This document shows positions 5,693-37,368 of a DNA stretch of 64,000 bases, one piece after another; position 1 is the first letter of the stretch, and each line of letters begins with the position of its first letter. Origin of the DNA: Geodermatophilaceae bacterium (GTDB taxonomy: Bacteria; Actinomycetota; Actinomycetes; Mycobacteriales; Geodermatophilaceae); the NCBI GenBank assembly GCA_050999295.1, contig JBPCPI010000089.1, positions 4,533 to 68,532 on the forward strand, written 5' to 3'. The translations under genes and the position numbers were made by a program. The notes beneath the pieces were generated by a model. It searched no databases. It had not been told where the DNA came from and was given only the letters and a program-made list of their open reading frames with translations.

Positions 5693-5747
5693 GGCTCCAT
5701 TTTTGCATTGGCCTGCGGGGCCGGTGCGGCGGGCGGAGCTGGCGGAT

Positions 5748-7286
5748 CTACCAGATATTGACGCAGAGGCGCCCGTCCACATCTTCCCAGCTCAGGCGGT
5801 AACCGCAGGTGTACCCGTAGTCCTCGAAGGGGTCACGTGGAGGGCTCGCGAAGTACAGATCGTCGCAAGACCGCATGCTCCCGGCGTAGCACTCTTGCGC
5901 GAGAGAATCCAGGAACGGGTCGCCGTAGCTGGCCGGCGGCGGGCCTCCGGCCGGGGGTGGACCCCCTGGGGCGGGAGGCGCGGGCGGCGCTGGGGGCGGG
6001 TTCGTGGTCCGCGGTGTGGTCGTTTGCGGCGCGAGGGTCGGCGCGGCTGCCGTCTGCGGCGGGGTCGGCGGCGCCGCAGGGGTCCCCATGGAGGTGGGCG
6101 CCGGCGACGTGGTGGCCTTTGAGCTGCCAAGCGCATCCGCGGTGGCCGAAACGGGGTTGGCCTGTTGGCCGGGGGGGTCGGGCTCGCTCAGCAGCGCTAC
6201 CCCGATGAGGGCGGCTGCAGCGAGCAGCGCCACCATCGCGGCGACGAGCAGCGCAGCGCTGAGGCGGCGGCGGGATCGCGGCCGCACCGGAGCGGCATGG
6301 GACGAGCGGGTCAGGGCCACCGGAGCGTGAAGTTGGGCACTGGGTTGGAAGGAAGGCGGTTTGGCTGGCGGCGCTGGCAGCTGCCAGGACGCCAGCACGT
6401 CGGTCGGGTGGCCGGCCGCGTCCATTGCCAGCGAACGAGGCGCGGGCGCCGTCCGGAGTTCGGCGCGGGCAGCCGCGGCCAGGTCACCAGCCCGGCGATA
6501 GCGGTCCTCGGGGTTCTTGGCCATCCCTCGGACCACCACCGCATCCAGCCCCGCCGGCAGATCGGCGTTCAGCATTGATGGCCGAGGTGCAGGTGTGTGC
6601 AGGTGGTTGTTCATCAGGACCGGGCCCGCACCGAGAAACGGTCGCCTGCCGGCGAGGCATTCGTAGAGCAGGCAGGCCAGGGAGTACACATCGGTCCGGC
6701 GGTCGAACGGTGTGTCTAGGAACCGTTCCGGAGCCATGTAGTCGAAGCTGCCCATGGCCGCACCGGTCAGGGTGAGGGTGGGTCCGTCGTCCTCGGCGGC
6801 GCGGGCGATCCCGAAGTCGACGAGATAGACGAACACGTCGTCACTGTCGCTGTTGGGATGGGTGACCAGGACGTTGGAGGGCTTCACGTCGCGGTGGATG
6901 AGCCCGTCGTCGTGCGCGGCATCCAGAGCTTGCGCGACCTGACTGATGATGTCCACGGCGCGCTTCGCGGACAGCGCGGCAGGTGTCCTGAGCAACGCGC
7001 CCAGATCGCTTCCGTCGACCAGGCGCATGTCCAGGAACAGCCGACCATCGATCTCCCCGAACCGGTGGATCGGGATGACGTGGGCCTCGCGCAGTCGTGC
7101 GGCCAGCTCCGACTCCCGCCGGAACCGGGCCCGGTAATTCTCATCTGCGGCCAGATGGGGGGAGAGCACCTTGAGCGCCACTGCGCGCTTGTGGCTCTCG
7201 TCGTAGGCCCGGTAGACCTCCCCCATCCCACCCCGGCCGAGTAGTGCCTCGATCCGGTACGGGCCGAAGCGAACCTCGTCTGTCAC
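5748..7286 (-). CDS. Ser/Thr protein kinase, single-pass membrane, Pro-rich linker, Cys-containing C-terminal ectodomain
   Basis: Hanks motifs GRGGMGEVYRA, VALK, HRDVKPSN, DFGIA and APE. Transmembrane helix LLVAAMVALLAAAALIGVALL. GTG start. Confidence 0.92.
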   Translation of the reverse strand: MTDEVRFGPYRIEALLGRGGMGEVYRAYDESHKRAVALKVLSPHLAADENYRARFRRESELAARLREAHVIPIHRFGEIDGRLFLDMRLVDGSDLGALLRTPAALSAKRAVDIISQVAQALDAAHDDGLIHRDVKPSNVLVTHPNSDSDDVFVYLVDFGIARAAEDDGPTLTLTGAAMGSFDYMAPERFLDTPFDRRTDVYSLACLLYECLAGRRPFLGAGPVLMNNHLHTPAPRPSMLNADLPAGLDAVVVRGMAKNPEDRYRRAGDLAAAARAELRTAPAPRSLAMDAAGHPTDVLASWQLPAPPAKPPSFQPSAQLHAPVALTRSSHAAPVRPRSRRRLSAALLVAAMVALLAAAALIGVALLSEPDPPGQQANPVSATADALGSSKATTSPAPTSMGTPAAPPTPPQTAAAPTLAPQTTTPRTTNPPPAPPAPPAPGGPPPAGGPPPASYGDPFLDSLAQECYAGSMRSCDDLYFASPPRDPFEDYGYTCGYRLSWEDVDGRLCVNIW

Positions 7287-11477: not shown

Positions 11478-12227
11478 GTGACCGATCCACTGGTGCAACC
11501 GCGTCCTGATGGACAGAACCCCGCCGACTACACCGACGACGTGGTTTCGGCGGACTTGGTCCGCCTCGTGCGTGACCTGGGTCCGGGTGGCCGGCTGCCG
11601 GGTGAACGCGACCTAGCGATCCAGCTAGGGGTCAGCCGGACGGCACTGCGCGACCGGCTTCAACTTCTCGATGGACTTGGTGTGCTGCGCCGTACGACCG
11701 GTTCCGGCACCTATGTCCAGACATTGCAGCCCACCGGACTCGCGCTTGCCCTGAACGTCGCCATAAGCGTCTCTCAGCTCTCCACCGAGGCGCTGCACTC
11801 GGTTCGAATCGCGCTGGAACGGCAAGCGGCCGCCGAGGCAGCTCTGGCCGGTGACTACGTCCTGATGGCCTACATGCGAAAGGCCATCCACACGATCGAT
11901 GTCGCGAGCGATGACGCAGATGTCGACGATGCGGACTTCCACTTCCACGACGCGCTCCTTCGCGCCGCCGGCAACCCAGCGCTCAGCTTCTTCGCCGACG
12001 CACTCTCGGGTGTGCTCAAGCGGGCGCTGAGCCAGCGGCGCGCTGAAATGCGACTCCACGTTGGTGACCATGAGGTGATGGTCAATGTGCATCAGGCAAT
12101 CTATGAGGCTGTGCTGTCAGGGGACCCGGCAGCAGCGATGGCAGCGACTGACAATCACTTCGAGACGTTCGAACACTTTGCCGGGGGTGGGCACTACCGA
12201 ACCGCGCTACCCCCGCGAGGACGCTGA
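11478..12227 (+). CDS. GntR/FadR family transcriptional regulator (paralog 1)
   Basis: AAGGAGG precedes GTG 11478. wHTH block GERDLAIQLGVSRTALRDRLQLLDGLGVLRR plus an FCD-type helical C-terminus. The 3' end overlaps the convergent carrier-protein gene by 21 nt. Confidence 0.85.
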   Translation: MTDPLVQPRPDGQNPADYTDDVVSADLVRLVRDLGPGGRLPGERDLAIQLGVSRTALRDRLQLLDGLGVLRRTTGSGTYVQTLQPTGLALALNVAISVSQLSTEALHSVRIALERQAAAEAALAGDYVLMAYMRKAIHTIDVASDDADVDDADFHFHDALLRAAGNPALSFFADALSGVLKRALSQRRAEMRLHVGDHEVMVNVHQAIYEAVLSGDPAAAMAATDNHFETFEHFAGGGHYRTALPPRGR

Positions 12228-23128: not shown

Positions 23129-23157
23129 TTGACCATCCTCGTGAGTGGTCCTACCAT
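23129..23157 (+). promoter_or_regulatory. promoter with embedded FadR-type operator TGGTCCTACCA (GntR paralog 2)
   Basis: TTGACC (23129-23134), 17-nt spacer, TACCAT (23152-23157). The palindrome TGGT-CCT-ACCA at 23146-23156 spans the -10 box. Confidence 0.6.
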
Positions 23158-23189
23158 TTCTCGAGGCGGTCGGACCTTCGGAGGTGCAT

Positions 23190-23987
23190 GTGGTGTCACC
23201 CGGATCCGACCTTTCTAGCCTCGTGGGCGACCACTACCGCTCGGACCCGGTGTCCGCCGGGCTCTCCGATGTGATTCGCTCTTTAGCCCCAGGAGATCGG
23301 CTGCTCGGCGAACGAGACCTCGCTGTCACACTCGGGGTGAGTCGCACGGCACTGCGTGACCGGTTGCGGTTGATGGAGGGCTTGGGAGTTCTGAGGCGCA
23401 CAACCGGCTCCGGCACCTTTGTGCAGGACCTTGATCCCACCGGCCTTGCGCTTGCCCTCGACATCGCGCTGTCCTCGTCGCGCATTCCGCTCTCGGCATT
23501 GCACACGGTGCGCACGGCAATCGAACGGCAGGCTGCCATCGAAGCTGCCGGCCAACAGGATCCCGTGCTGATCGCCCATATGCGGAAGGCGGTGGACACG
23601 ATTGCCGCGTCGACCGAGGACTCCGAAGTGGACAATGCGGACTTCCACTTTCATGACACTTTGCTACGGGCTTCCGGCAACCAGGCCCTCGCGTTCTTCG
23701 CCAGCGCTCTGGGCGGAGTGCTCCACAAGTCGCTTCACGAGCGACGCATCGAAATGCGCAAGATCGCCGGTGACCGCGAGGTCATGGCACGCGTTCATCG
23801 CGACATCTATGACGCGGTGGCCTCCGGAGATTCCGTGGCCGCCGCTGCTGCTGTCGAGGAGCACTTCGCCACATTCGACCGGTTGGTGCTCGCAGCCCCG
23901 AAATTGACCACACCTTCCCAACTGACCGTTACGAATTCCGGCTCTCGGAAGACCGGTGATCCCGGCGGCGCCTTGTCTCCTGACTGA
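23190..23987 (+). CDS. GntR/FadR family transcriptional regulator (paralog 2)
   Basis: GGAGG lies upstream of in-frame GTG 23190/23193. About 90% identical by eye to paralog 3. Same wHTH block GERDLAVTLGVSRTALRDRLRLMEGLGVLRR. Confidence 0.85.
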   Translation: MVSPGSDLSSLVGDHYRSDPVSAGLSDVIRSLAPGDRLLGERDLAVTLGVSRTALRDRLRLMEGLGVLRRTTGSGTFVQDLDPTGLALALDIALSSSRIPLSALHTVRTAIERQAAIEAAGQQDPVLIAHMRKAVDTIAASTEDSEVDNADFHFHDTLLRASGNQALAFFASALGGVLHKSLHERRIEMRKIAGDREVMARVHRDIYDAVASGDSVAAAAAVEEHFATFDRLVLAAPKLTTPSQLTVTNSGSRKTGDPGGALSPD

Positions 23988-24193: not shown

Positions 24194-24703
24194 GTGAAAA
24201 CGGCCTCCGGAACCGGCCTTGTCCTCGTCCGCTGCGAGGCAAGTGAGGACGTCTTCGCCGGATTGTTGATGGTCTTCGACGATCTGGGCGTCGATGCTGC
24301 ATCGGTCAGCGGGATGGTGGGCAGCCTTCAGCGGGTGGAGTACGCGACAGCGGTGTGCGACCCCCGCGGGCGCCCTGGCTATAGCCGCAGCGTCATACGG
24401 ACTGGTCCCATCGAGATCGGGTCCGCACAGGGTCACCTGGGCCGGAATCCAGCCGGCCGACCTGAGCTGCATTTGCACGGGGTCTTCTTCACCGACGTCG
24501 GAACGGTGTTCGGCGGACACGTCGTCCAGGCCGAGGTCCTCGTCACCGTCGAGGTCGCCCTCATCCCCGATCGCGATGTCGGCTGGAGCAGGGACTACGT
24601 ACGAGTCAAAGGATCGGATCTGCTACCTGTCCTGCAACCGATCAACACGGAGGGTAACGCTAGTGCGCCGTTACTGAAGTGTTTTGACGGTTCGCTTTGG
24701 TGA
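24194..24703 (+). CDS. PPC (DUF296) domain protein, copy A (GTG start, altered 3' end)
   Basis: Near-identical to 33697-34167 (…ELHLHGVFFTDVGTVFGGHVVQAEVLVTVEV…). A 1-nt difference removes the original stop and reads into the IS630 remnant. Confidence 0.55.
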   Translation: MKTASGTGLVLVRCEASEDVFAGLLMVFDDLGVDAASVSGMVGSLQRVEYATAVCDPRGRPGYSRSVIRTGPIEIGSAQGHLGRNPAGRPELHLHGVFFTDVGTVFGGHVVQAEVLVTVEVALIPDRDVGWSRDYVRVKGSDLLPVLQPINTEGNASAPLLKCFDGSLW

Positions 24704-29587: not shown

Positions 29588-29616
29588 TTGACCGACTTGA
29601 CGAGTGGTCCTACCAT
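29588..29616 (+). promoter_or_regulatory. promoter with embedded FadR-type operator TGGTCCTACCA (GntR paralog 3)
   Basis: TTGACC (29588-29593), 17-nt spacer, TACCAT (29611-29616). Palindrome at 29605-29615. Confidence 0.6.
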
Positions 29617-29648
29617 TCGTCGAAGCGGTTGGACCTTCGGAGGTGCAT

Positions 29649-30443
29649 GTGGAGTCACCCAGCCCCAATCTCTCTGGTCTCGTGGGCGACCACTACCGCT
29701 CGGACCCGGTGTCCGCCGGGCTTTCCGATGTCATTCGCTTAGCGCCGGGGGATCGGCTGCCCGGCGAGCGAGACCTCGCCATCACACTCGGGGTGAGTCG
29801 CACGGCGCTGCGTGACCGGTTGCGGTTGATGGAGGGCTTGGGGGTTCTAAGGCGCACAACCGGCTCAGGCACCTTCGTGCAGGACCTTGATCCCACCGGC
29901 CTCGCGCTCGCCCTCGACATCGCACTGTCCTCGTCGCGGATTCCGCTCTCGGCGTTGCACAGCGTGCGGACGGCGATCGAGCGGCAGGCGGCCATTGAAG
30001 CGGCTGGTCAACAGGATCCCGTGCTGATCGCCCATATGCGGAAAGCGGTGGACACGATCGCCGCGTCGCCTGACAACCCCGAGGTGGACGCTGCGGACTT
30101 CCACTTTCATGACACTTTGCTACGGGCTTCCGGCAATCAGGCCCTCGCGTTTTTCGCCAGCGCTCTTGGCGGTGTGCTCCACAAGGCTCTTCACGAGCGA
30201 CGCATCGAGATGCGCAAGATCGCCGGTGACCGCGAGATCATGGTGCGCCTTCATCGCGACATCTATGATGCGGTGGCCTCCGGGGATTCCGCGGCCGCCG
30301 CCGCAGCAGTCGACGAGCATTTCGCCACTTTCGACCGGCTGGCGATCGCGGCCCAGAAGTTGACCGCGCCCTCCGAACTGAATGCCAGGAAGGCAGGCTC
30401 TCGGACGACCAGGGACCTCGGGGGCGCCTTTTCTCCTGACTGA
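29649..30443 (+). CDS. GntR/FadR family transcriptional regulator (paralog 3)
   Basis: GGAGG lies 5 nt before in-frame GTG 29649. wHTH plus FCD domain. Confidence 0.85.
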   Translation: MESPSPNLSGLVGDHYRSDPVSAGLSDVIRLAPGDRLPGERDLAITLGVSRTALRDRLRLMEGLGVLRRTTGSGTFVQDLDPTGLALALDIALSSSRIPLSALHSVRTAIERQAAIEAAGQQDPVLIAHMRKAVDTIAASPDNPEVDAADFHFHDTLLRASGNQALAFFASALGGVLHKALHERRIEMRKIAGDREIMVRLHRDIYDAVASGDSAAAAAAVDEHFATFDRLAIAAQKLTAPSELNARKAGSRTTRDLGGAFSPD

Positions 30444-30546
30444 CGTGCGAACGATGTACGGGCACCGCACCGGCTACCAGTGGAATGCCTACGACCCACC
30501 CACCTATCCCTGCCCCCAACCAGGTCTCACGATGAGGAGCGCAACG

Positions 30547-31620
30547 ATGCGCACACTGTGGAAAACAACGATTGTGCTGTTGAGCGTGGCGTTATTGATT
30601 GTGTCATGCGGCGGGTCCGGCGGCGGGGGTGGCTCCTCCGATGAGGGAGGGGGTAGTGCTGCGGCCCAGGATTGCACTGACAAGACAATCCGGCTCAGTT
30701 TCATCGCCTCCGACACCTCGACCTGGGCCAAGGCCTCCGAGGAGTTCAAGGAGCGCACGGAATCCGAGACTGACGGGCGCATCACCGTGGAGCTGTACTC
30801 CGGTGGCCAGCTGGCGTCAGGAAATCAGCAAGCCGAACTGCAGCAGGTGCAGCAGGGGGTCATTGACGCGCTGTGGGTCAGCCCCATCATTCTCGCTCTC
30901 TATGCCGATCCCCGCTTCGACATCTACAGCCTGCCGTTCCTGTTTCCAGACCATGAAGTCGCGAACGAGGTCATCGATGGCGAGGTGGGCGAGCTGACCG
31001 AGGGCTGGCTTCGGGAAGCGGGGTTTGAGCCGCTCGGATGGGGTGTCAACGGCTTCCGGCAGGTCACCAACGACGAAAGACCAATCCGGACGCCGGCGGA
31101 CATGGAGGGACTCAAGTTCCGTGTCGCCGGGACCGACCTCTTCAAGACCGTCTTCAGCGAACTCGGTGCCGAGCCGGTCACGATGAGTTTCGGTGAGGTC
31201 TTCACCGCCTTGCAGCAGGGGGCGATCGACGGCCAGGAGAACCCGCTGTCGATCATCTACAGCTCCAGCCTGCAGGACGTACAAAGCCATGTGAGCTTGT
31301 GGAACTACAGCTATGACCCGCTGGTCCTTGCCATGAATCAGGGGGCTTTCGATGGGCTGTGCGCCGAAGATCAGGAAGTGCTCAAGACGGCGGCCCAAGC
31401 CGGTGGAGATCTCCAGCGTGAGCTCACCATCGAGGAGGACGAGAGCCTGCCAGCCCAGCTCGAAGCCGAAGGCATGGAGGTAGTGCCGACCGAGGATATC
31501 GACGTGGAAGCCTTCCGCGACCTCATCGTCGAGCCGATCTACACCCAGTGGGAGGAGATCATCGGTGCGGACAACTTGCAGATGATGGTGGACGCCGTCG
31601 AGCAGGCCGAGGGCTCCTGA
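30547..31620 (+). CDS. dctP: TRAP transporter substrate-binding lipoprotein
   Basis: GAGGAG lies 6 nt before ATG 30547. Lipobox LIVSCGG. DctP-family body (FRVAGTDLF..., GAIDGQENP). Confidence 0.88.
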   Translation: MRTLWKTTIVLLSVALLIVSCGGSGGGGGSSDEGGGSAAAQDCTDKTIRLSFIASDTSTWAKASEEFKERTESETDGRITVELYSGGQLASGNQQAELQQVQQGVIDALWVSPIILALYADPRFDIYSLPFLFPDHEVANEVIDGEVGELTEGWLREAGFEPLGWGVNGFRQVTNDERPIRTPADMEGLKFRVAGTDLFKTVFSELGAEPVTMSFGEVFTALQQGAIDGQENPLSIIYSSSLQDVQSHVSLWNYSYDPLVLAMNQGAFDGLCAEDQEVLKTAAQAGGDLQRELTIEEDESLPAQLEAEGMEVVPTEDIDVEAFRDLIVEPIYTQWEEIIGADNLQMMVDAVEQAEGS

Positions 31621-32210
31621 TGAGTCCGGCGGGAGGTCGTCGGCGCCAAGACGATGCCGCCGACCTCTCGCCTCTGGAGCGGGCCGCGGAACAGGCCGCG
31701 GTCGCGCAGCCGACGGGCGCAGATCGCCTGGACGACGACACGCCGGCTCGTCTGGCGCCTGATGACTATGCTGGGATGCTCCTGCTGGCCGTCATGGTTC
31801 TGATTGCGCTGGTCGCGGTTGCGGGCCGATTCTTCCCCGCCCTTTCCATCCCGTACTCCGACCAGATGCTGCCCGACATGCTGGTGTGGCTGGCCTTGCT
31901 GGGCGCGGTCAGTGCGGTCCGATGGCGCCAGCATCTGGGCATGAGCGCTCTGATCGACAAGCTACCCCCGCGGGGCCGACAGTCTCTTTCCGTCGGCGTC
32001 AACCTGCTTGCCGTGACATTCTTCGCGGTCATCGCTTACCGCGGGTTCGAAGTGGTCCGACTGCAGTACTCCTCAGGACTGGACAGCCCCGGTGGCTACC
32101 CGTCGTGGCTCGTCGCCCTGGCGTTCCCGGTCTGCGCGGTGCTCATCATCGGCCGGTTGCTGTGGAACGCCTGGCTCAGCGCCCGTCGGCTGGCAAGGAC
32201 TGACCGCTGA
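31620..32210 (+). CDS. dctQ: TRAP transporter small permease
   Basis: The ATG overlaps the dctP stop. Four hydrophobic helices after a charged N-terminus. Confidence 0.8.
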   Translation: MSPAGGRRRQDDAADLSPLERAAEQAAVAQPTGADRLDDDTPARLAPDDYAGMLLLAVMVLIALVAVAGRFFPALSIPYSDQMLPDMLVWLALLGAVSAVRWRQHLGMSALIDKLPPRGRQSLSVGVNLLAVTFFAVIAYRGFEVVRLQYSSGLDSPGGYPSWLVALAFPVCAVLIIGRLLWNAWLSARRLARTDR

Positions 32211-33700
32211 TGGACCCCCTGGTGACGCTGGTGCTCTTCGCGTCCTTTGTCATCCTTCTGGCGGTCGGCGCGCCCATCTACCTTTCCCTTGGCCTGTCCG
32301 CTCTGATCGTCATAGCGGTCTTTGACCTGGTGCCTCTTGCCGCCGTGCCGAGTCAGATCCAAGGATCGCTCTCCTCGTTCACGTTGCTGGCAGTGCCGTT
32401 CTTCATATTTGCGGGGAACTTGCTGGCGGGCTCGGAGCTGACGGCTCGGCTGATCGACCTCTCGCGCGCTGTGGTCGGTCGGGTGCGTGGTGGGCTAGCC
32501 ATTGTCACGACGATCACCGGGGTCTTCTTCGCCGGCATCTCCGGGTCTGGCCCAGCCGACACCGCAGCCCTAGGGGCGACCCTGCTGCCGGCCTTGGACA
32601 GGGACCGGTACGACAAGGGCTTCAGTGCGGCCTTGGTCGCGGCGAGCGGCGCGATCGGTATCATCGTTCCTCCCTCGATCGCGCTCATCATCTACGGGGT
32701 GGTGGCCAATGCGTCCATCGGCCGGCTGTTCCTGGCTGGCGTTCTCCCCGGAGTCCTCGTGGCCGTGAGCCTTGCCGTGGTGAGCGTGATCCAGTCAAGG
32801 CGGAAGGGATACGGTCCGCTCGAGCCCGCTCACGAAACCCTCGCCTCCGCTGACCCGATCGGCAGCAAGGCCCTCGCCCCGCCGCATGCCGGATCCGCCC
32901 ACCCGGAAGCGGGCCAGGAAAGGCGTACGGAGGCTGGCAAGGTAACCGGCACGGAGGACCGGGTGGCCGTGCACGTGGAAACCGGGCCGGTCGATGAGCG
33001 CACACTCGCCGCCCCCCCGCGTCCCGGCCGTGCCCGCCTGATCGCCCACACATTCCGCCGCGCAGTGTGGGGCCTGCTCGCGCCGTTGATCATCCTCGGC
33101 GGAATCTATGGCGGCATATTCACACCGACGGAGGCGGCTGCGGTCGTTGTGCTGTACGCCTTGTTCGTTGGCGTTTTCGTCTACCGCGACATGCGGATCA
33201 AGTCCTTCATATCCGTGCTGGCGGAGTCCACCCGGACGACTGGTGTGGTCATGATCATCGTGGCGTGCGCGTCGTTGTTCGCGTTCCTGCTCAATACCCA
33301 GGGCATCGCCAGAGCTGCGGCGACCGGACTGGCCGACGCCATACCCAATGCCGTCCTCACCCTGCTGCTGATCAACGTGATCCTGTTGGTCGCGGGCGCC
33401 TTCCTCGATGCGATCAGCGTCTTCTACATCCTCACGCCGATCTTGCTGCCCACCGCAGTCGCCTTCGGCGTGGACCCGATTCATTTCGGCATCATCATGT
33501 GTGTCAACCTCGCCATCGGACAGATCACGCCGCCCGTGGGAGTCAATCTGTACGTTGCCGCCGCGGTGGGGAGGATTCCGGTGGCGCGTGTGATCGGCTC
33601 GCTCGGGCCGATCCTGCTCGCCGAACTCGTCGCTCTGGGCATCATCACCTTCGTTCCCGGCCTCAGCCTGTGGCTGCCCGACGTCCTGGGTGTCCTATGA
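32210..33700 (+). CDS. dctM: TRAP transporter large permease (with about 55-70 aa hydrophilic insertion)
   Basis: DctM pattern (LLAVPFFIFAGNLL, GGIFTPTEAAAV, TPPVGVNLYVAA). 496 aa. Confidence 0.9.
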   Translation: MDPLVTLVLFASFVILLAVGAPIYLSLGLSALIVIAVFDLVPLAAVPSQIQGSLSSFTLLAVPFFIFAGNLLAGSELTARLIDLSRAVVGRVRGGLAIVTTITGVFFAGISGSGPADTAALGATLLPALDRDRYDKGFSAALVAASGAIGIIVPPSIALIIYGVVANASIGRLFLAGVLPGVLVAVSLAVVSVIQSRRKGYGPLEPAHETLASADPIGSKALAPPHAGSAHPEAGQERRTEAGKVTGTEDRVAVHVETGPVDERTLAAPPRPGRARLIAHTFRRAVWGLLAPLIILGGIYGGIFTPTEAAAVVVLYALFVGVFVYRDMRIKSFISVLAESTRTTGVVMIIVACASLFAFLLNTQGIARAAATGLADAIPNAVLTLLLINVILLVAGAFLDAISVFYILTPILLPTAVAFGVDPIHFGIIMCVNLAIGQITPPVGVNLYVAAAVGRIPVARVIGSLGPILLAELVALGIITFVPGLSLWLPDVLGVL

Positions 33701-34167
33701 GAACGGCGTCTGGAACCGGACTTGTCCTGGTCCGTCTCGAGGCGACTGAAGACGTTTTCGCCGGATTGTTGATGGTCTTCGACGATTTGGGCGTCGATGC
33801 TGCATCGGTCAGCGGGATGGTGGGCAGCCTGCAGCGGGTGGAGTACGCGACAGCAGTGTGCGACCCGCGCGGGCGCCCTGGCTATAGCCGCAGCGTCATA
33901 CGGAATGGTCCCATCGAGATCGGGTCCGCGCAGGGGCAACTGGGCCGGAATCCAGCCGGCCGACCTGAGCTGCATTTGCACGGGGTCTTCTTCACCGACG
34001 TCGGAACGGTGTTCGGCGGACATGTCGTCGAGGCCGAGGTCCTCGTCACCGTCGAGGTCGCCCTCATCCCCGATCGCGATGTCGGCTGGAGCAGGGACTA
34101 CGTACGAGTCAAAGGATCGGATCCGCTACCTGTCCTGCAACCGATCAACACGGAGGGTAACGCCTAG
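33697..34167 (+). CDS. PPC (DUF296) domain protein, copy B
   Basis: ATGA overlap with the dctM stop. LVLVRLEATEDVF...VDAASVSGMVGSL...IEIGSAQG...ELHLHGVFFTDVGTVFGGHVVEAEVLVTVEVAL fits the PPC beta-sandwich consensus. Confidence 0.7.
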   Translation: MRTASGTGLVLVRLEATEDVFAGLLMVFDDLGVDAASVSGMVGSLQRVEYATAVCDPRGRPGYSRSVIRNGPIEIGSAQGQLGRNPAGRPELHLHGVFFTDVGTVFGGHVVEAEVLVTVEVALIPDRDVGWSRDYVRVKGSDPLPVLQPINTEGNA

Positions 34168-34240: not shown

Positions 34241-35284
34241 GTGACCACCACCGACATACCGGTTGAACCGATAGCACCTGGTGAGCCCTCGCCGTCGTCC
34301 GGCAGCGCAAGCCTGCGCGACAGCGGGTTGTCACGTGTCGATGCCGTTGACCTGTACCGCACCATGGTGCGAATTCGATCCTTCGAGACGGCAACCGAGA
34401 AGTTGTTCCTCGGCTCGGAGATCCCAGGCTTCGTCCATCTGAGTATCGGCCAGGAAGCGGTTGCAGCGGGCGTGTGTGCGGCCTTGCGCGATGACGACTA
34501 CATCACCAGTACCCATCGTGGCCACGGGCACACCTTGGCAAAGGGAGCCCCGACGGACCGGATGATGGCCGAGCTCTTCGGCCGGGACACCGGCATCTGC
34601 CGGGGTCGTGGCGGTTCGATGCACATCGCCGACTTCTCGGTCGGCATGCTCGGAGCCAACGGCATCGTGGCTGGCGGTCTCGGCCTGGCCGCCGGCGCCG
34701 GCCTCAGCAGCCTGCTCACCAGCGGAGACACCATAAGCGCCAGCTTCTTCGGTGATGGCGCGACGGCGCGCGGGCCCTTCCACGAGGCTTTGAATCTCGC
34801 CCGAGTCTGGAACCTGCCCGTGGTCTTCGTCTGCGAGAACAACGGGTGGGCCAGCACCAGCAGGGCTGAGGACATGCTCGCGGTCCCGAACGTCTCTGAC
34901 CGAGCGGCTGCCTACGACATGCACACCGCAGTCGTCGACGGCAATGACGTCTTCGCGGTGCACACCGCAGCCACCGACGCGATCGAGCGCGCCCGCACCG
35001 GAGGCGGCCCCACATTGCTCGAGGCTCGTACGTACCGCATGCGGGGCCACTACATCGGAGATCCCACCAAGTACCGCGACCCCGCTGAGCTGGCCAAGTG
35101 GGAGGGACTGGACTGCCTCGCGCGAGCCGGCAAGCTGCTCCTGGAGGCAGGGTGGCTCGAAGACGAGGAACGTCAGACGATGCACGACGAGGCAGATGCC
35201 GAGATCGAGCGGGCAGTTGAATTCGCCCGGGAGTCACCACTGCCCGATCCGGATGAATTGCGACGCTTCGTCTATGGCGACTGA
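34241..35284 (+). CDS. thiamine-diphosphate-dependent 2-oxoacid/acetoin dehydrogenase E1 alpha subunit
   Basis: AGAGGAGG lies 6 nt before GTG 34241. HLSIGQEA, STHRGHGH, GGSMH, FFGDGA...ENNGWA. Confidence 0.88.
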   Translation: MTTTDIPVEPIAPGEPSPSSGSASLRDSGLSRVDAVDLYRTMVRIRSFETATEKLFLGSEIPGFVHLSIGQEAVAAGVCAALRDDDYITSTHRGHGHTLAKGAPTDRMMAELFGRDTGICRGRGGSMHIADFSVGMLGANGIVAGGLGLAAGAGLSSLLTSGDTISASFFGDGATARGPFHEALNLARVWNLPVVFVCENNGWASTSRAEDMLAVPNVSDRAAAYDMHTAVVDGNDVFAVHTAATDAIERARTGGGPTLLEARTYRMRGHYIGDPTKYRDPAELAKWEGLDCLARAGKLLLEAGWLEDEERQTMHDEADAEIERAVEFARESPLPDPDELRRFVYGD

Positions 35285-35387
35285 GGACGGGGATCCGCGC
35301 AGCCTGCAGGACGCCGTCGCAATTCTCAGAACCGGCGAACCATTGAACCCACGCAAGACTCGATAGCGCGACCCACGAGGAGATCCG

Positions 35388-36368
35388 TTGCCAGAACGCA
35401 AGATCAGCTTCAGCAAGGCCACGCTGGAAGCAATGATGGAGGAGATGGAGCGCGACCCGACCGTCTTTCTCATGGGAGAGGACATCGCCAAGCAGGGCGG
35501 CATTTTCGGCCAGTACAAGGGTCTCCCCGAGGCTTTCGGCTTGGAGCGCATCCGTGACTTCCCGATCAGCGAGGGCGTACTGATTTCCTCCTGCATAGGC
35601 GCAGCGTTGACCGGCACCCGGCCCGTCGCAGACATCCACTTCAGCGACTTTCTCACCTGCGCCATGGACGAGATGGTGAACCAGGCCGCCAAACTGCGCT
35701 TCATGACCGGTGGTCAGGCGAGCGTTCCCATGGTCGTCCGGGCACCTGAGGGAGCCGTGAAATCGGCTGCCGCACAGCATTCACAGAGCATCGAATCGTG
35801 GTTCATCCACACTCCGGGCTGGCGGGTGGTCTCACCGTCCAACGCTGCGGACGCCAAGGGCCTGCTCAAGACCGCGATCCGATGCGACGACCCGGTGCTG
35901 TACCTGGAACACAAGGCCCTCTACGCCGGGAAGGGTCCGGTACCCGAGGGCGAGCACCTCGTCCCGTTGGGACAAGCCAGGATCGCGCGCGAGGGTACCG
36001 ACGTCACGGTCATCAGCTGGTCGCTTATGGTGAATCGGGCCCTGGAGGCTGCCGAACGGCTGGCCGAGGAAGGCACCTCGGTCGAGGTGATCGATCTGCG
36101 CTCGCTGAGTCCGCTGGACATGGAGACCATCGAGACCTCCGTACGCAAGACCCACCGTGTCGTCGTGGCACACGAGGCAGCGCGCTCGTGCGGTCTAGGT
36201 GCGGAGATCTCCGCCCGGATAGTGGAGAGCTGCTTCGCAGACCTGCACGCACCCATCGTCCGGGTGGCGAACCCTGACCTTCCGATCGCGTTCTCTCCAG
36301 CTCTGGAAAAGCTGACCATCCCTCAGGTCGACGACATCCTCTCCGCTACTCGGAAGGCCGCAGCATGA
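35388..36368 (+). CDS. 2-oxoacid/acetoin dehydrogenase E1 beta subunit
   Basis: Transketolase-like Pyr and C-terminal domains (FLMGEDI, DFPISEG, APVVRV-type blocks). TTG start after GAGGAG. Confidence 0.88.
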   Translation: MPERKISFSKATLEAMMEEMERDPTVFLMGEDIAKQGGIFGQYKGLPEAFGLERIRDFPISEGVLISSCIGAALTGTRPVADIHFSDFLTCAMDEMVNQAAKLRFMTGGQASVPMVVRAPEGAVKSAAAQHSQSIESWFIHTPGWRVVSPSNAADAKGLLKTAIRCDDPVLYLEHKALYAGKGPVPEGEHLVPLGQARIAREGTDVTVISWSLMVNRALEAAERLAEEGTSVEVIDLRSLSPLDMETIETSVRKTHRVVVAHEAARSCGLGAEISARIVESCFADLHAPIVRVANPDLPIAFSPALEKLTIPQVDDILSATRKAAA

Positions 36369-36607
36369 GTCACGATGTCGTGATCCCGCAACTGGGTCTG
36401 ACCATGGAGACGGCTCTGCTGACGGTCTGGCACGTCAGCGAGGGTGACCAGGTGACAGCTGATCAGCTGATCGCCGACATCGCGACCGACAAGGTCGACC
36501 ACGAGCTCTTGGCGCCGGTGTCCGGAACGATCTCGGGCCTGCACGCGACCGATGACGAGGAGGAGTTGCCGGTGGGCACCGTCATCGCCCGGATCGAGCC
36601 GGCGTAG
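36365..36607 (+). CDS. stand-alone lipoyl-attachment domain protein (80 aa)
   Basis: VVIPQLGLTMETALLTVWHVSEGDQV...IADIATDKVDHELLAPVSG carries the lipoyl-Lys motif. It stops directly after the domain. ATGA overlap with E1 beta. Confidence 0.8.
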   Translation: MSHDVVIPQLGLTMETALLTVWHVSEGDQVTADQLIADIATDKVDHELLAPVSGTISGLHATDDEEELPVGTVIARIEPA

Positions 36608-36609
36608 GA

Positions 36610-37368
36610 GTGTCCGCGCCCGAGATGCGGCCGCAATGGGAGGGTCGCACCCTTGTCGTCACCGGGGGCGGCTCGGGGATCGGTGCAGCCGTCTGTCTGC
36701 AGGCCGCGACCAGAGGCGCAGCAGTCGTAGTCCTCGATGTCGACGCCGGGGCTGCGGCCCGGACTGCAGCGGAGTGCGGTCCCGGCGCGGTTCATACGCA
36801 GGTAGACGTCACTGACCCGCCGGCCATGTCCGCTGCGGTGCACCAGATCTGCACGAAAACTGGTGGTTCCGTGTGGGGACTGGTGACCTCGGCCGGCATC
36901 GTCAGCCCGCAGCCGATCGGGACGATCTCGCCTGACGAGGCGCGCCGGGTCCTGGCTGTCAACGTGATCGGAGTGATCAACTCCGTTCAGGCGGTCCTGC
37001 CATTCCTGTCGCGCGGCAGCGGGGTGGTCAACGTCTCTTCCGTTGCTGCGCACAGTGGCGGAGGGTTCTTCGGTGCATCGACCTACGCGGCCTCCAAGGC
37101 GGCCGTGATCGGTCTGACCCGCGGCGTGGCGCGTGAACTGGCAGGGACAGGAGTTCGCGTCAACTGCGTCGCGCCGGGGCCGGTGGATACCCCCATGCTG
37201 GAGACGGCCACACCGGCGGACCGATCACGAATCGAGGGGGCCGCGCTACTGGGCGCTCTCTCCACCCCCAAGGACATCGCCGCCGCCATCTGCTTCCTGC
37301 TCTCCGACGAGTCGGGGTCCATCACGGGGGAGACGGTCAACGTCAACGGCGGATCCTACTTCGGTTAG
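36610..37368 (+). CDS. SDR family oxidoreductase
   Basis: TGGGSGIG, NSVQ..., S...YAASKAA catalytic tetrad context. Start is GTG 36610 or ATG 36625. Confidence 0.88.
   Translation: MSAPEMRPQWEGRTLVVTGGGSGIGAAVCLQAATRGAAVVVLDVDAGAAARTAAECGPGAVHTQVDVTDPPAMSAAVHQICTKTGGSVWGLVTSAGIVSPQPIGTISPDEARRVLAVNVIGVINSVQAVLPFLSRGSGVVNVSSVAAHSGGGFFGASTYAASKAAVIGLTRGVARELAGTGVRVNCVAPGPVDTPMLETATPADRSRIEGAALLGALSTPKDIAAAICFLLSDESGSITGETVNVNGGSYFG

What the first reader, a model, noticed from the sequence alone, without database searches (positions are those of the whole stretch)
34241..37368. E1alpha-E1beta followed by a stand-alone 80-aa lipoyl domain and an SDR, with no E2 catalytic domain or E3
The operon GntR, dctPQM, PPC, E1alpha, E1beta, lipoyl domain, SDR resembles acetoin or 2-oxoacid dehydrogenase loci. 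However, the E2 gene is replaced by a bare lipoyl-attachment domain (DIATDKVDHEL) that stops right after the domain. No dihydrolipoamide acyltransferase core or dihydrolipoyl dehydrogenase is encoded nearby.

The acyl-lipoyl intermediate would therefore need a trans-acting partner. Alternatively, the system may use the lipoyl arm as a shuttle for non-canonical chemistry on the TRAP-imported substrate.
Basis: partly seen in the sequence, partly recalled or inferred. Interest (0 to 1): 0.6.

Follow-up and report, generated by a model that had tools for sequence, protein, structure and literature searches.

The report
E2-less E1 with free lipoyl carrier
An uncultured actinobacterium has a nutrient-uptake operon that encodes the first enzyme of a pyruvate-dehydrogenase-type complex and a tiny free lipoic-acid carrier but no core enzyme; the layout is real and under selection, it already occurs in Haloferax and Thermus, and how it works has not been resolved.

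Summary
Window 34241-37368 encodes E1alpha, E1beta, an 80-aa protein that is only a lipoyl domain (PF00364), and an intact SDR that starts 3 nt after the lipoyl stop. These genes lie behind GntR, DctPQM and a PCC/DUF296 gene.

It is not an artefact. Independent metagenome contigs carry the same cassette, and the lipoyl gene is under purifying selection (dN/dS 0.14 at dS 0.45).

The nearest E1alpha relatives have E1a-E1b-full E2-SDR-DctP. This lineage therefore most likely lost the E2 peripheral-subunit-binding domain and catalytic core. The lipoyl-only state needs at least 4-5 changes on the E1alpha tree.

No E2 core or Lpd lies on the 70-kb contig. Elsewhere the MAG has an E2p next to Lpd, a BCKDH-type E2, a lipoyl-less OdhA-type core, LipA and LipB.

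Best reading (0.5): a substrate-specific E1 loads its own lipoyl carrier, and housekeeping E2 and E3 finish the reaction in trans.

The layout is documented but unsolved in Haloferax volcanii (oadhA2-oadhB2-oadhL) and is annotated on a Thermus thermophilus plasmid. This scan has also noted it repeatedly on other DNA. I file it as a new member of a known, mechanistically open kind, of moderate interest.

The parts
29604..30443 (+). GntR/FCD-family regulator (start codon uncertain)
   Evidence: Pfam FCD 70.7 bits and GntR 42.1 bits. A paralogue with 87.5% aa identity lies at 23145-23984.
30382..31620 (+). TRAP solute-binding protein DctP (the true start is probably later than 30382)
   Evidence: PF03480 254.6 bits. 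The best solved relatives are 4p8b, 4pdh, 4p9k and 4nq8, and the GFR, LKfR and QENP motifs are kept.
31548..32210 (+). TRAP small permease DctQ (start uncertain)
   Evidence: PF04290 69.5 bits.
32210..33700 (+). TRAP large permease DctM
   Evidence: PF06808 350.6 bits.
33697..34167 (+). PCC/DUF296 protein, with its ATG overlapping the dctM stop
   Evidence: PF03479 54.9 bits. Homologues lie next to E1/TRAP genes in 15 further loci of several phyla, including L160.
34241..35284 (+). E1 alpha subunit (ThDP-dependent, PDH/acetoin type)
   Evidence: PF00676. TIGR03182 scores 347 bits, below its cut-off. The GDG...NN motif and the RmrGH histidine are kept in the alignment to human E1alpha. A GAGGAGG ribosome-binding site precedes the GTG start.
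35388..36368 (+). E1 beta subunit
   Evidence: PF02779 and PF02780. NF006667 scores 355 bits, above its cut-off. The AQHSQS histidine is kept.
36365..36607 (+). 80-aa stand-alone lipoyl carrier protein (lipoyl-lysine K43 in TDKV)
   Evidence: PF00364 only. K43 is invariant in a 17-sequence alignment. The AF2 model has pLDDT 85.7 and matches E2 lipoyl domains at TM 0.87-0.89. dN/dS is 0.14 against L195.
36610..37368 (+). Classical SDR oxidoreductase, last gene of the operon
   Evidence: adh_short 164 bits and adh_short_C2 179 bits. An SDR in the same position follows the lipoyl gene or E2 in L195, L160, L154, L034, L052, L054, L060 and L071.

Best explanation
This is a working catabolic operon for a carboxylate imported by the TRAP system.

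Shown by the sequence evidence:
- It carries a PDH/acetoin-type heterotetrameric E1 (alpha and beta subunits).
- It carries a dedicated 80-residue lipoyl carrier protein. This carrier most likely descends from a full E2 that lost its peripheral-subunit-binding domain and acyltransferase core.
- The carrier gene is conserved and under purifying selection.

Inferred mechanism:
1. The SDR, perhaps with the PCC protein, oxidises the imported hydroxy acid to a 2-oxo acid or an alpha-hydroxyketone.
2. E1 decarboxylates or cleaves that product on ThDP and reductively acylates lipoyl-K43 of its own carrier.
3. One of the genome's three E2 catalytic cores (E2p, the BCKDH-type E2, or the naturally lipoyl-less OdhA-type core) moves the acyl group to CoA in trans.
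4. The housekeeping Lpd re-oxidises the dihydrolipoyl arm.

The likely reason for keeping a private carrier is that E1 enzymes recognise their cognate lipoyl domain, whereas E2 cores and E3 are less selective. This is general knowledge of the family.
For: - Domain content and tight gene packing.
- Same cassette in independent assemblies. L195 has E1b 93%, Lip 91% and SDR 79% identity. L160 has PCC 38%, E1a 67%, E1b 73%, Lip 51% and SDR 54% identity. Both have a 79-80 aa lipoyl gene.
- Lip and E1a also co-occur on a 10.9-kb contig and an 8.07-kb contig.
- dN/dS: Lip 0.14, E1b C-terminus 0.09, SDR 0.27, all at dS about 0.45.
- K43 is invariant and D42 nearly invariant. The fold is that of a lipoyl domain, with K43 in a hairpin turn. 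The best sequence match in the PDB is an E2p lipoyl domain with the same TDKVD motif.
- E1 keeps the ThDP motif and both histidines, which I recall as needed for reductive acylation.
- In the E1a tree the window is sister (support 95) to a clade with E1a-E1b-full E2-SDR-DctP.
- Trans partners exist. OdhA-like protein of 1236 aa with a PF00198 core and no lipoyl domain. BCKDH-type E2 of 547 aa. E2p of 662 aa next to Lpd. LipB and LipA are also present.
- Precedent: actinobacterial OdhA works on lipoyl groups supplied in trans by E2p (PMC10415282).
Against: - No experiment or structure links this carrier to any E2 core or to Lpd.
- The carrier has no binding domain that would tether E1 or E3.
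- The MAG is 86% complete, so its inventory of partners is incomplete.
- In Haloferax volcanii, the documented case with the same layout, no substrate was identified after repeated genetic work. So even the overall reaction is unknown.
- The substrate here is not identified. The DctP similarity to binders of small 2-hydroxy acids is about 190 bits, and the ligand assignments of those PDB entries are from my memory.
Confidence: 0.5

Rival explanations
1. CoA-independent oxidative decarboxylase. E1 acylates the free carrier. The thioester is then hydrolysed, spontaneously or by an unlinked thioesterase, or is passed to an acceptor other than CoA. Lpd re-oxidises the carrier. The net reaction is 2-oxo acid + NAD+ giving acid + CO2 + NADH, with no E2 core involved.
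For: - No E2 core lies in the operon or on the 70-kb contig.
- The lipoyl-only state recurs with no core on contigs up to 12.5 kb (L161-L169) and in the Thermus plasmid operon.
- L090 keeps the lipoyl domain plus the E3/E1-binding domain but has no core. That suggests E3 contact matters more than transacylation.
Against: - It wastes the thioester energy.
- No thioesterase or alternative acyltransferase is conserved next to the cassette in the loci annotated here.
- Every genome examined that carries the module also has ordinary E2 cores.
Confidence: 0.2
2. Non-canonical use of the lipoyl arm. The carrier shuttles an acyl or reducing equivalent between E1 and the co-conserved SDR or PCC protein. 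Examples would be acyl transfer onto another metabolite or operation in the reductive direction, rather than feeding a standard E2/E3.
For: - The SDR follows the lipoyl gene directly in the window, L195, L160 and L154.
- The PCC protein is syntenic with this E1 family across phyla and has no known bacterial function.
- Earlier notes of this scan describe E1 plus free-carrier modules inside glycan and ACP clusters. These are unchecked leads.
Against: - The SDR and PCC genes are also present in relatives with a full E2, so they do not replace the core.
- The Thermus-type operon has the carrier but neither an SDR nor a PCC gene.
- The SDR is a generic FabG/BudC-like enzyme.
Confidence: 0.12
3. 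Vestigial carrier. The E2 was truncated, and E1 now works without lipoate as a plain decarboxylase, carboligase or cleaving enzyme. The 80-aa gene is kept only for translational coupling.
For: - The region is accessory. There is a decayed duplicate of GntR plus PCC nearby.
- No E1a orthologue (E <= 1e-105) was found in the 400 other genomes searched in the same order, including 46 of the same family.
Against: - dN/dS is 0.14 at dS 0.45, as constrained as E1beta.
- Gene length and the lipoyl-lysine are kept down to 51% identity.
- Both E1 histidines tied to lipoyl acylation are kept.
- The state recurs independently.
Confidence: 0.07
4. Assembly or sequencing artefact. 36365-37368 is really one frameshifted E2 gene.
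For: None found. The source is a fragmented MAG of 268 contigs.
Against: - The downstream gene is a complete SDR with its Rossmann motif, not an E2 core.
- Contigs from other projects have the same stop position.
Confidence: 0.01

Closest known systems
Haloferax volcanii oadhA2-oadhB2-oadhL operon (HVO_2595, HVO_2596, HVO_2597)
   Same: It has E1 alpha, E1 beta and then a short protein that consists only of a lipoyl domain (86 aa), with no E2 core or E3 in the cluster. The E1 is related to acetoin-type E1. The function is unresolved (PMC8305020 table and supplement).
   Different: It is archaeal and has no TRAP, PCC or SDR context on record. Pyruvate and 2-oxoglutarate were excluded there, whereas nothing has been tested for the window's enzyme. 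Orthology to the window was not tested here.
Thermus thermophilus megaplasmid operon (NZ_LR027520.1: TrmB, WP_124105600.1, WP_028494457.1, lipoyl domain-containing protein WP_028494456.1, DctPQM, MFS)
   Same: E1 alpha and beta, then an 80-aa lipoyl-domain protein, then a TRAP transporter, with no E2 or E3 in the operon. E1alpha is 52.5% identical to the window's.
   Different: The regulator is TrmB rather than GntR. There is no PCC gene and no SDR, and the TRAP genes lie downstream. I found no characterisation in the held literature.
Actinobacterial PDH/ODH system with OdhA (KGD)
   Same: The lipoyl domain and the acyltransferase core are on different polypeptides and work in trans. The window's genome has such an OdhA-type protein.
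   Different: In that system the core is the orphan and borrows E2p's lipoyl domains. Here the lipoyl domain is the orphan and would have to borrow a core.
Canonical heterotetrameric-E1 complexes and the acetoin dehydrogenase system (AcoA/AcoB/AcoC/AcoL)
   Same: The E1 alpha/beta type is the same. The lipoyl domain's best NCBIfam match is the AcoC-type E2 (NF011457, 60 bits). An SDR of butanediol-dehydrogenase type is in the operon. The nearest relatives have a full E2.
   Different: No E2 catalytic domain, no binding domain and no E3 are in the operon. TRAP uptake points to an anionic substrate rather than acetoin.
Lipoyl domains outside E2 (alphaproteobacterial E1beta with an N-terminal lipoyl domain, NF008854; Neisseria P64k E3 with a lipoyl domain, PDB 1gjx)
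   Same: A lipoyl domain is associated with E1 or E3 rather than with an E2 core (hits).
   Different: Those domains are fused and sit beside a complete E2. Here the domain is free and the operon has no E2.

Membership tests
E1alpha-beta plus unattached lipoyl-domain operon (Haloferax oadhAB2-oadhL type) | E1 alpha and E1 beta genes are followed directly by a short protein that is only a lipoyl domain. | tested here: met
   Pfam shows PF00364 only, in 80 aa, with an ATGA overlap with E1beta.
E1alpha-beta plus unattached lipoyl-domain operon (Haloferax oadhAB2-oadhL type) | No E2 catalytic core and no E3 in the gene cluster. | tested here: met
   No PF00198 match and no Lpd-grade match on contig C242.
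E1alpha-beta plus unattached lipoyl-domain operon (Haloferax oadhAB2-oadhL type) | Common descent with the Haloferax genes. | not tested
The lipoyl-only state is polyphyletic on the E1a tree, so the kind is an architecture and not a clade.
2-oxoacid dehydrogenase complex with heterotetrameric E1 (PDH/BCKDH type) | ThDP-dependent E1 alpha with the GDG...NN motif, plus E1 beta. | tested here: met
2-oxoacid dehydrogenase complex with heterotetrameric E1 (PDH/BCKDH type) | E2 with lipoyl domain, peripheral-subunit-binding domain and PF00198 core encoded with E1. | tested here: not met
   Only the lipoyl domain is present. The sister clade has all three domains.
2-oxoacid dehydrogenase complex with heterotetrameric E1 (PDH/BCKDH type) | Dihydrolipoyl dehydrogenase E3 available. 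| tested here: met
   Not in the operon. One Lpd above the TIGR01350 cut-off lies at C191, next to E2p.
Acetoin dehydrogenase enzyme system (AcoABCL) | AcoC (lipoyl domain plus acyltransferase) and AcoL in the cluster. | tested here: not met
Acetoin dehydrogenase enzyme system (AcoABCL) | Activity on acetoin. | not testable with these tools
   Only automatic names from some sources say acetoin. TRAP uptake argues for an acid.
Lipoyl domain (as opposed to biotinyl carrier or GcvH) | Lysine in a DK(A/V) hairpin turn of a flattened beta-barrel, no MKM motif, and not the H-protein family. | tested here: met
   TDKV with K43 invariant. The AF2 fold and its top matches are E2 lipoyl domains. The best PDB sequence hits are E2 lipoyl domains. 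There is no PF01597 hit.
Lipoyl domain (as opposed to biotinyl carrier or GcvH) | Actually lipoylated in the cell. | not testable with these tools
   LipB and LipA genes are present. The modification itself is not shown.

The most novel reading that the evidence does not exclude
E1alpha-beta plus a free lipoyl carrier is a widespread plug-in module that has arisen repeatedly. It is seen in Actinomycetota, in Thermus, on hot-spring and sediment metagenome contigs, and in haloarchaea. It would give a cell a new substrate specificity by hijacking the housekeeping E2 cores and E3. Alternatively it would work with no E2 at all, which would be an undescribed CoA-independent mode of lipoate-dependent oxidative decarboxylation. 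In the TRAP-linked branch, the PCC/DUF296 protein would be a further, unrecognised pathway component.
Probability: 0.4. Interest if true: 0.6.

Novelty: new member of a known kind. Interest (0 to 1): 0.4.

Why it matters
The textbook view is that the lipoyl arm is tethered to an E2 core that organises the whole complex. Operons that keep E1 and a free lipoyl protein but drop the core raise two questions. How is the acyl group passed on? How freely can complexes share parts?

That question has stood open for the Haloferax operon since it was first studied in 2002 (reference list). This window adds a bacterial case under clear purifying selection, with an identifiable ancestor state (full E2) and a defined transporter context. 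The Thermus and Pseudonocardia relatives offer cultured systems in which the question could be tested.

It also bears on annotation. Such E1 genes are routinely labelled pyruvate dehydrogenase, which is probably wrong.

Tried and rejected
- **Frameshift or assembly artefact.** Rejected.
- **A second free lipoyl protein in the genome.** The small Biotin_lipoyl frame on C8 follows a biotin carboxylase, so I read it as a biotinyl domain.
- **Close orthologues in reference genomes.** None at E <= 1e-105 in the 400 other genomes searched in the same order. The best species-representative genomes reach only 50-58% identity.
- **Promoter and terminator scans.** At chance level.
- **SDR specificity.** Generic.
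- **PCC function.** The literature covers only plant AHL proteins.
- **Literature on free lipoyl carriers with E1.** Five word searches gave nothing relevant. The Haloferax record was then found through an earlier scan note.
- **Papers not held.** Vetting et al. 2015 and Wanner and Soppa 2002 were not available. The ligand assignments of 4p8b, 4pdh, 4p9k and 4nq8, and the Haloferax mutant phenotype, therefore rest on my memory.
- The gene neighbourhoods of P0002, P0003, P0014 and the Pseudonocardia proteins could not be read.
- **A wrong query.** The PPC query was one base out of frame. It was redone.
Full report
**Observation**

The region reads as one tightly packed plus-strand operon:
- GntR/FCD regulator, 29604-30443
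- DctP, 30382-31620
- DctQ, 31548-32210
- DctM, 32210-33700
- PCC/DUF296 protein, 33697-34167, with its ATG overlapping the dctM stop
- E1alpha, 34241-35284, with a GTG start behind a GAGGAGG site
- E1beta, 35388-36368
- an 80-aa protein, 36365-36607
- an SDR, 36610-37368

The 80-aa protein matches only PF00364 (57 bits, residues 4-77). It has no E3-binding domain and no PF00198 domain. Its start overlaps the E1beta stop (ATGA). Its TAG stop is followed 3 nt later by the GTG of a complete SDR.

The next gene is a convergent MFS transporter. It is followed by a ThiD-like kinase gene (Phos_pyr_kin), which an earlier scan note reads as part of a thiamine operon.

**The gene is real**

Contigs from other projects carry the same genes:
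- L195: E1beta 93%, lipoyl protein 91% and SDR 79% identity.
- L160: PCC 38%, E1alpha 67%, E1beta 73%, lipoyl protein 51% and SDR 54% identity.

In both, the lipoyl gene is 79-80 codons long and ends right after the domain. The protein database also holds an 80-aa copy on a 10.9-kb contig with an 88%-identical E1alpha. It holds a 79-aa copy (72% identity) on an 8.07-kb contig with a 74%-identical E1alpha.

Against L195 the lipoyl gene has dN/dS 0.14 at dS 0.45. The E1beta C-terminus has 0.09 and the SDR 0.27.

The lysine of the TDKV turn (K43) is invariant in 17 free and E2-borne domains. An AlphaFold model (pLDDT 85.7) places K43 in the turn between two strands. The model superposes on E2 and E3BP lipoyl domains at TM 0.87-0.89. 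The best sequence match in the PDB is an E2p with the same TDKVD motif.

So it is a bona fide lipoyl domain under selection. It is not a pseudogene and not a biotin carrier.

**Origin**

Among 113 E1alpha sequences from related loci, adjacent lipoyl hits fall as follows:
- 52 belong to a full E2.
- 6 are lipoyl-only.
- 2 are a lipoyl domain plus a short extension.
- 9 are cut off by a contig or locus end.
- 44 loci have no adjacent lipoyl hit.

One of the two extended cases, L090, is a lipoyl domain plus E3-binding domain by Pfam.

On a FastTree phylogeny the window's E1alpha is sister (support 95) to an Eremiobacterota/Limnocylindrales clade. The gene order in that clade is E1a-E1b-E2-SDR-DctP, and its E2 has lipoyl, E3-binding and PF00198 domains.

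The simplest history is loss of the binding domain and core from an ancestral E2, with the SDR left directly behind the lipoyl domain. The lipoyl-only label needs 5 changes on the tree, of which 4 are forced by well-supported branches. Core loss is therefore recurrent.

This is a fast tree with local supports only, and the labels depend on how much flank was available.

**Other carriers**

Short lipoyl frames that cannot hold a core sit directly after E1alpha-beta in other genomes of the class. These are L152, L153, L154 and L156, and in L154 an SDR follows the lipoyl frame. In L152 and L154 the module lies with an XRE-cupin regulator and a sugar-type ABC transporter, and L154 also has two Zn-dependent alcohol dehydrogenases.

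A second TRAP-linked type is TrmB, E1a, E1b, 80-aa lipoyl protein, DctPQM, MFS. It is on metagenome contigs L161-L169. It is annotated in exactly that form on a Thermus thermophilus plasmid, where RefSeq calls the small gene a lipoyl domain-containing protein.

[quoted passage not shown] It adds that no substrate was identified and that pyruvate and 2-oxoglutarate were excluded.

The scan's notes show that the same layout has been reported on many other genomes. Those notes are unchecked AI leads. I used them as leads only.

**Trans partners**

The MAG has 3.46 Mb in 268 contigs and is 86% complete. It has three PF00198 cores, none on the window's 70.5-kb contig:
- an OdhA/KGD-type 1236-aa protein with a core but no lipoyl domain
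- a BCKDH-type E1a/E1b/E2 operon, with a 547-aa E2
- a 662-aa E2p with two lipoyl domains, next to the only Lpd above the TIGR01350 cut-off

LipB and LipA are present. The window's protein is the only free lipoyl domain in the assembly. The small frame on C8 belongs to a biotin carboxylase locus.

In Actinobacteria, OdhA is known to depend on lipoyl groups supplied in trans by E2p (PMC10415282). Sharing of parts between these enzymes is therefore established in this phylum.

**Mechanism**

E1alpha keeps the GDG...NN ThDP motif and the histidine of RmrGH. E1beta keeps the histidine of AQHSQS. [quoted passage not shown] That assignment is from memory.

The DctP protein is most similar to the solved TRAP binding proteins 4p8b, 4pdh, 4p9k and 4nq8. 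A review confirms that 2-acetolactate and pantoate/D-erythronate binders exist in this set. Which entry binds which ligand is from my memory.

The GFR, LKfR and QENP motifs are conserved. As I recall, they hold the carboxylate-binding Arg, Arg and Asn of SiaP. This fits an acidic substrate.

I therefore propose this sequence:
1. A small hydroxy- or oxo-carboxylate is taken up.
2. The SDR oxidises it.
3. E1 carries out ThDP-dependent decarboxylation or cleavage and acylates the private carrier.
4. A housekeeping E2 core transfers the acyl group to CoA.
5. Lpd re-oxidises the carrier.

Steps 1 and 2 are inferred from gene content. Step 3 is inferred from conservation. Steps 4 and 5 are inferred from the genome inventory and the OdhA precedent. 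None is shown.

The main rival is a CoA-independent route in which the thioester is hydrolysed. L090's lipoyl-plus-binding-domain protein without a core and the compact Thermus operon keep that rival alive.

**Accessory nature**

No E1alpha orthologue at E <= 1e-105 was found in the 400 other genomes searched in the same order, including 46 of the same family. The closest named proteins are from Pseudonocardia, at 63-68% identity. A decayed second copy of GntR plus PCC lies 6 kb upstream. The operon is probably acquired.

**Verdict**

The architecture is on record in Haloferax and Thermus, so this is a new member of a known kind. The chemistry of that kind is unresolved, which keeps the interest moderate.

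This prevented me from reading several neighbourhoods. One search flagged six of the genomes it searched (G401, G156, G181, G173, G192, G185) as unpublished. No claim in this report rests on them.

Noticed in passing
window 33697-34167; L015, L016, L017, L019, L025, L026, L029, L037, L046, L049, L070, L076, L085, L160: Homologues of the PCC/DUF296 protein lie directly beside E1alpha-beta or TRAP genes in loci from Desulfobacterota, Synergistota, Bacillota and an actinobacterial metagenome contig. They are often in the same DctM-PCC-E1a position as here. This points to a conserved, uncharacterised component of this TRAP-linked E1 family.
   Followed up: partly
window 23145-23984 and 24194-24661; also 11529-12206: A second copy of the GntR gene (87.5% aa identity) and of the PCC gene (94.9% aa identity) lies about 6 kb upstream, without matches to the TRAP or E1 proteins. 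A third GntR paralogue (64% aa identity) lies at 11529-12206. The PCC gene stays intact next to the regulator, which hints at a link between the two.
   Followed up: partly
L243 (Thermus thermophilus plasmid NZ_LR027520.1, 52058-66963): A cultured thermophile carries TrmB, E1alpha, E1beta, an 80-aa lipoyl domain-containing protein, DctPQM and MFS as one annotated operon. I found no paper on it in the held library. It would be a convenient experimental model.
   Followed up: partly
L079 5797-8007 (Acidimicrobiaceae MAG): E1alpha and E1beta are in one 736-codon open frame, apparently a fusion. A 79-aa free lipoyl gene precedes it at 5735-5974.
   Followed up: no
L090 8731-9243 (Thermoleophilaceae MAG): A 170-aa protein has a lipoyl domain plus an E3-binding domain but no catalytic core. 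It lies between two SDR genes, after E1alpha-beta. It looks like an intermediate form between a full E2 and a bare lipoyl carrier.
   Followed up: partly
own genome, G000:C8:9396-10724 (L245 4396-5724): A 352-aa biotin carboxylase-like frame has only the N- and C-terminal Pfam domains. A separate 87-aa biotinyl-type domain frame follows it. This may be a broken or split acyl-CoA carboxylase subunit.
   Followed up: no
L152 and L154 (two genomes of one actinobacterial family): The module of E1alpha-beta plus a free lipoyl protein sits with an XRE-cupin regulator and a sugar-type ABC transporter in both loci. L154 also has an SDR and two Zn-dependent alcohol dehydrogenases. This suggests a polyol or diol substrate in that branch.
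   Followed up: partly
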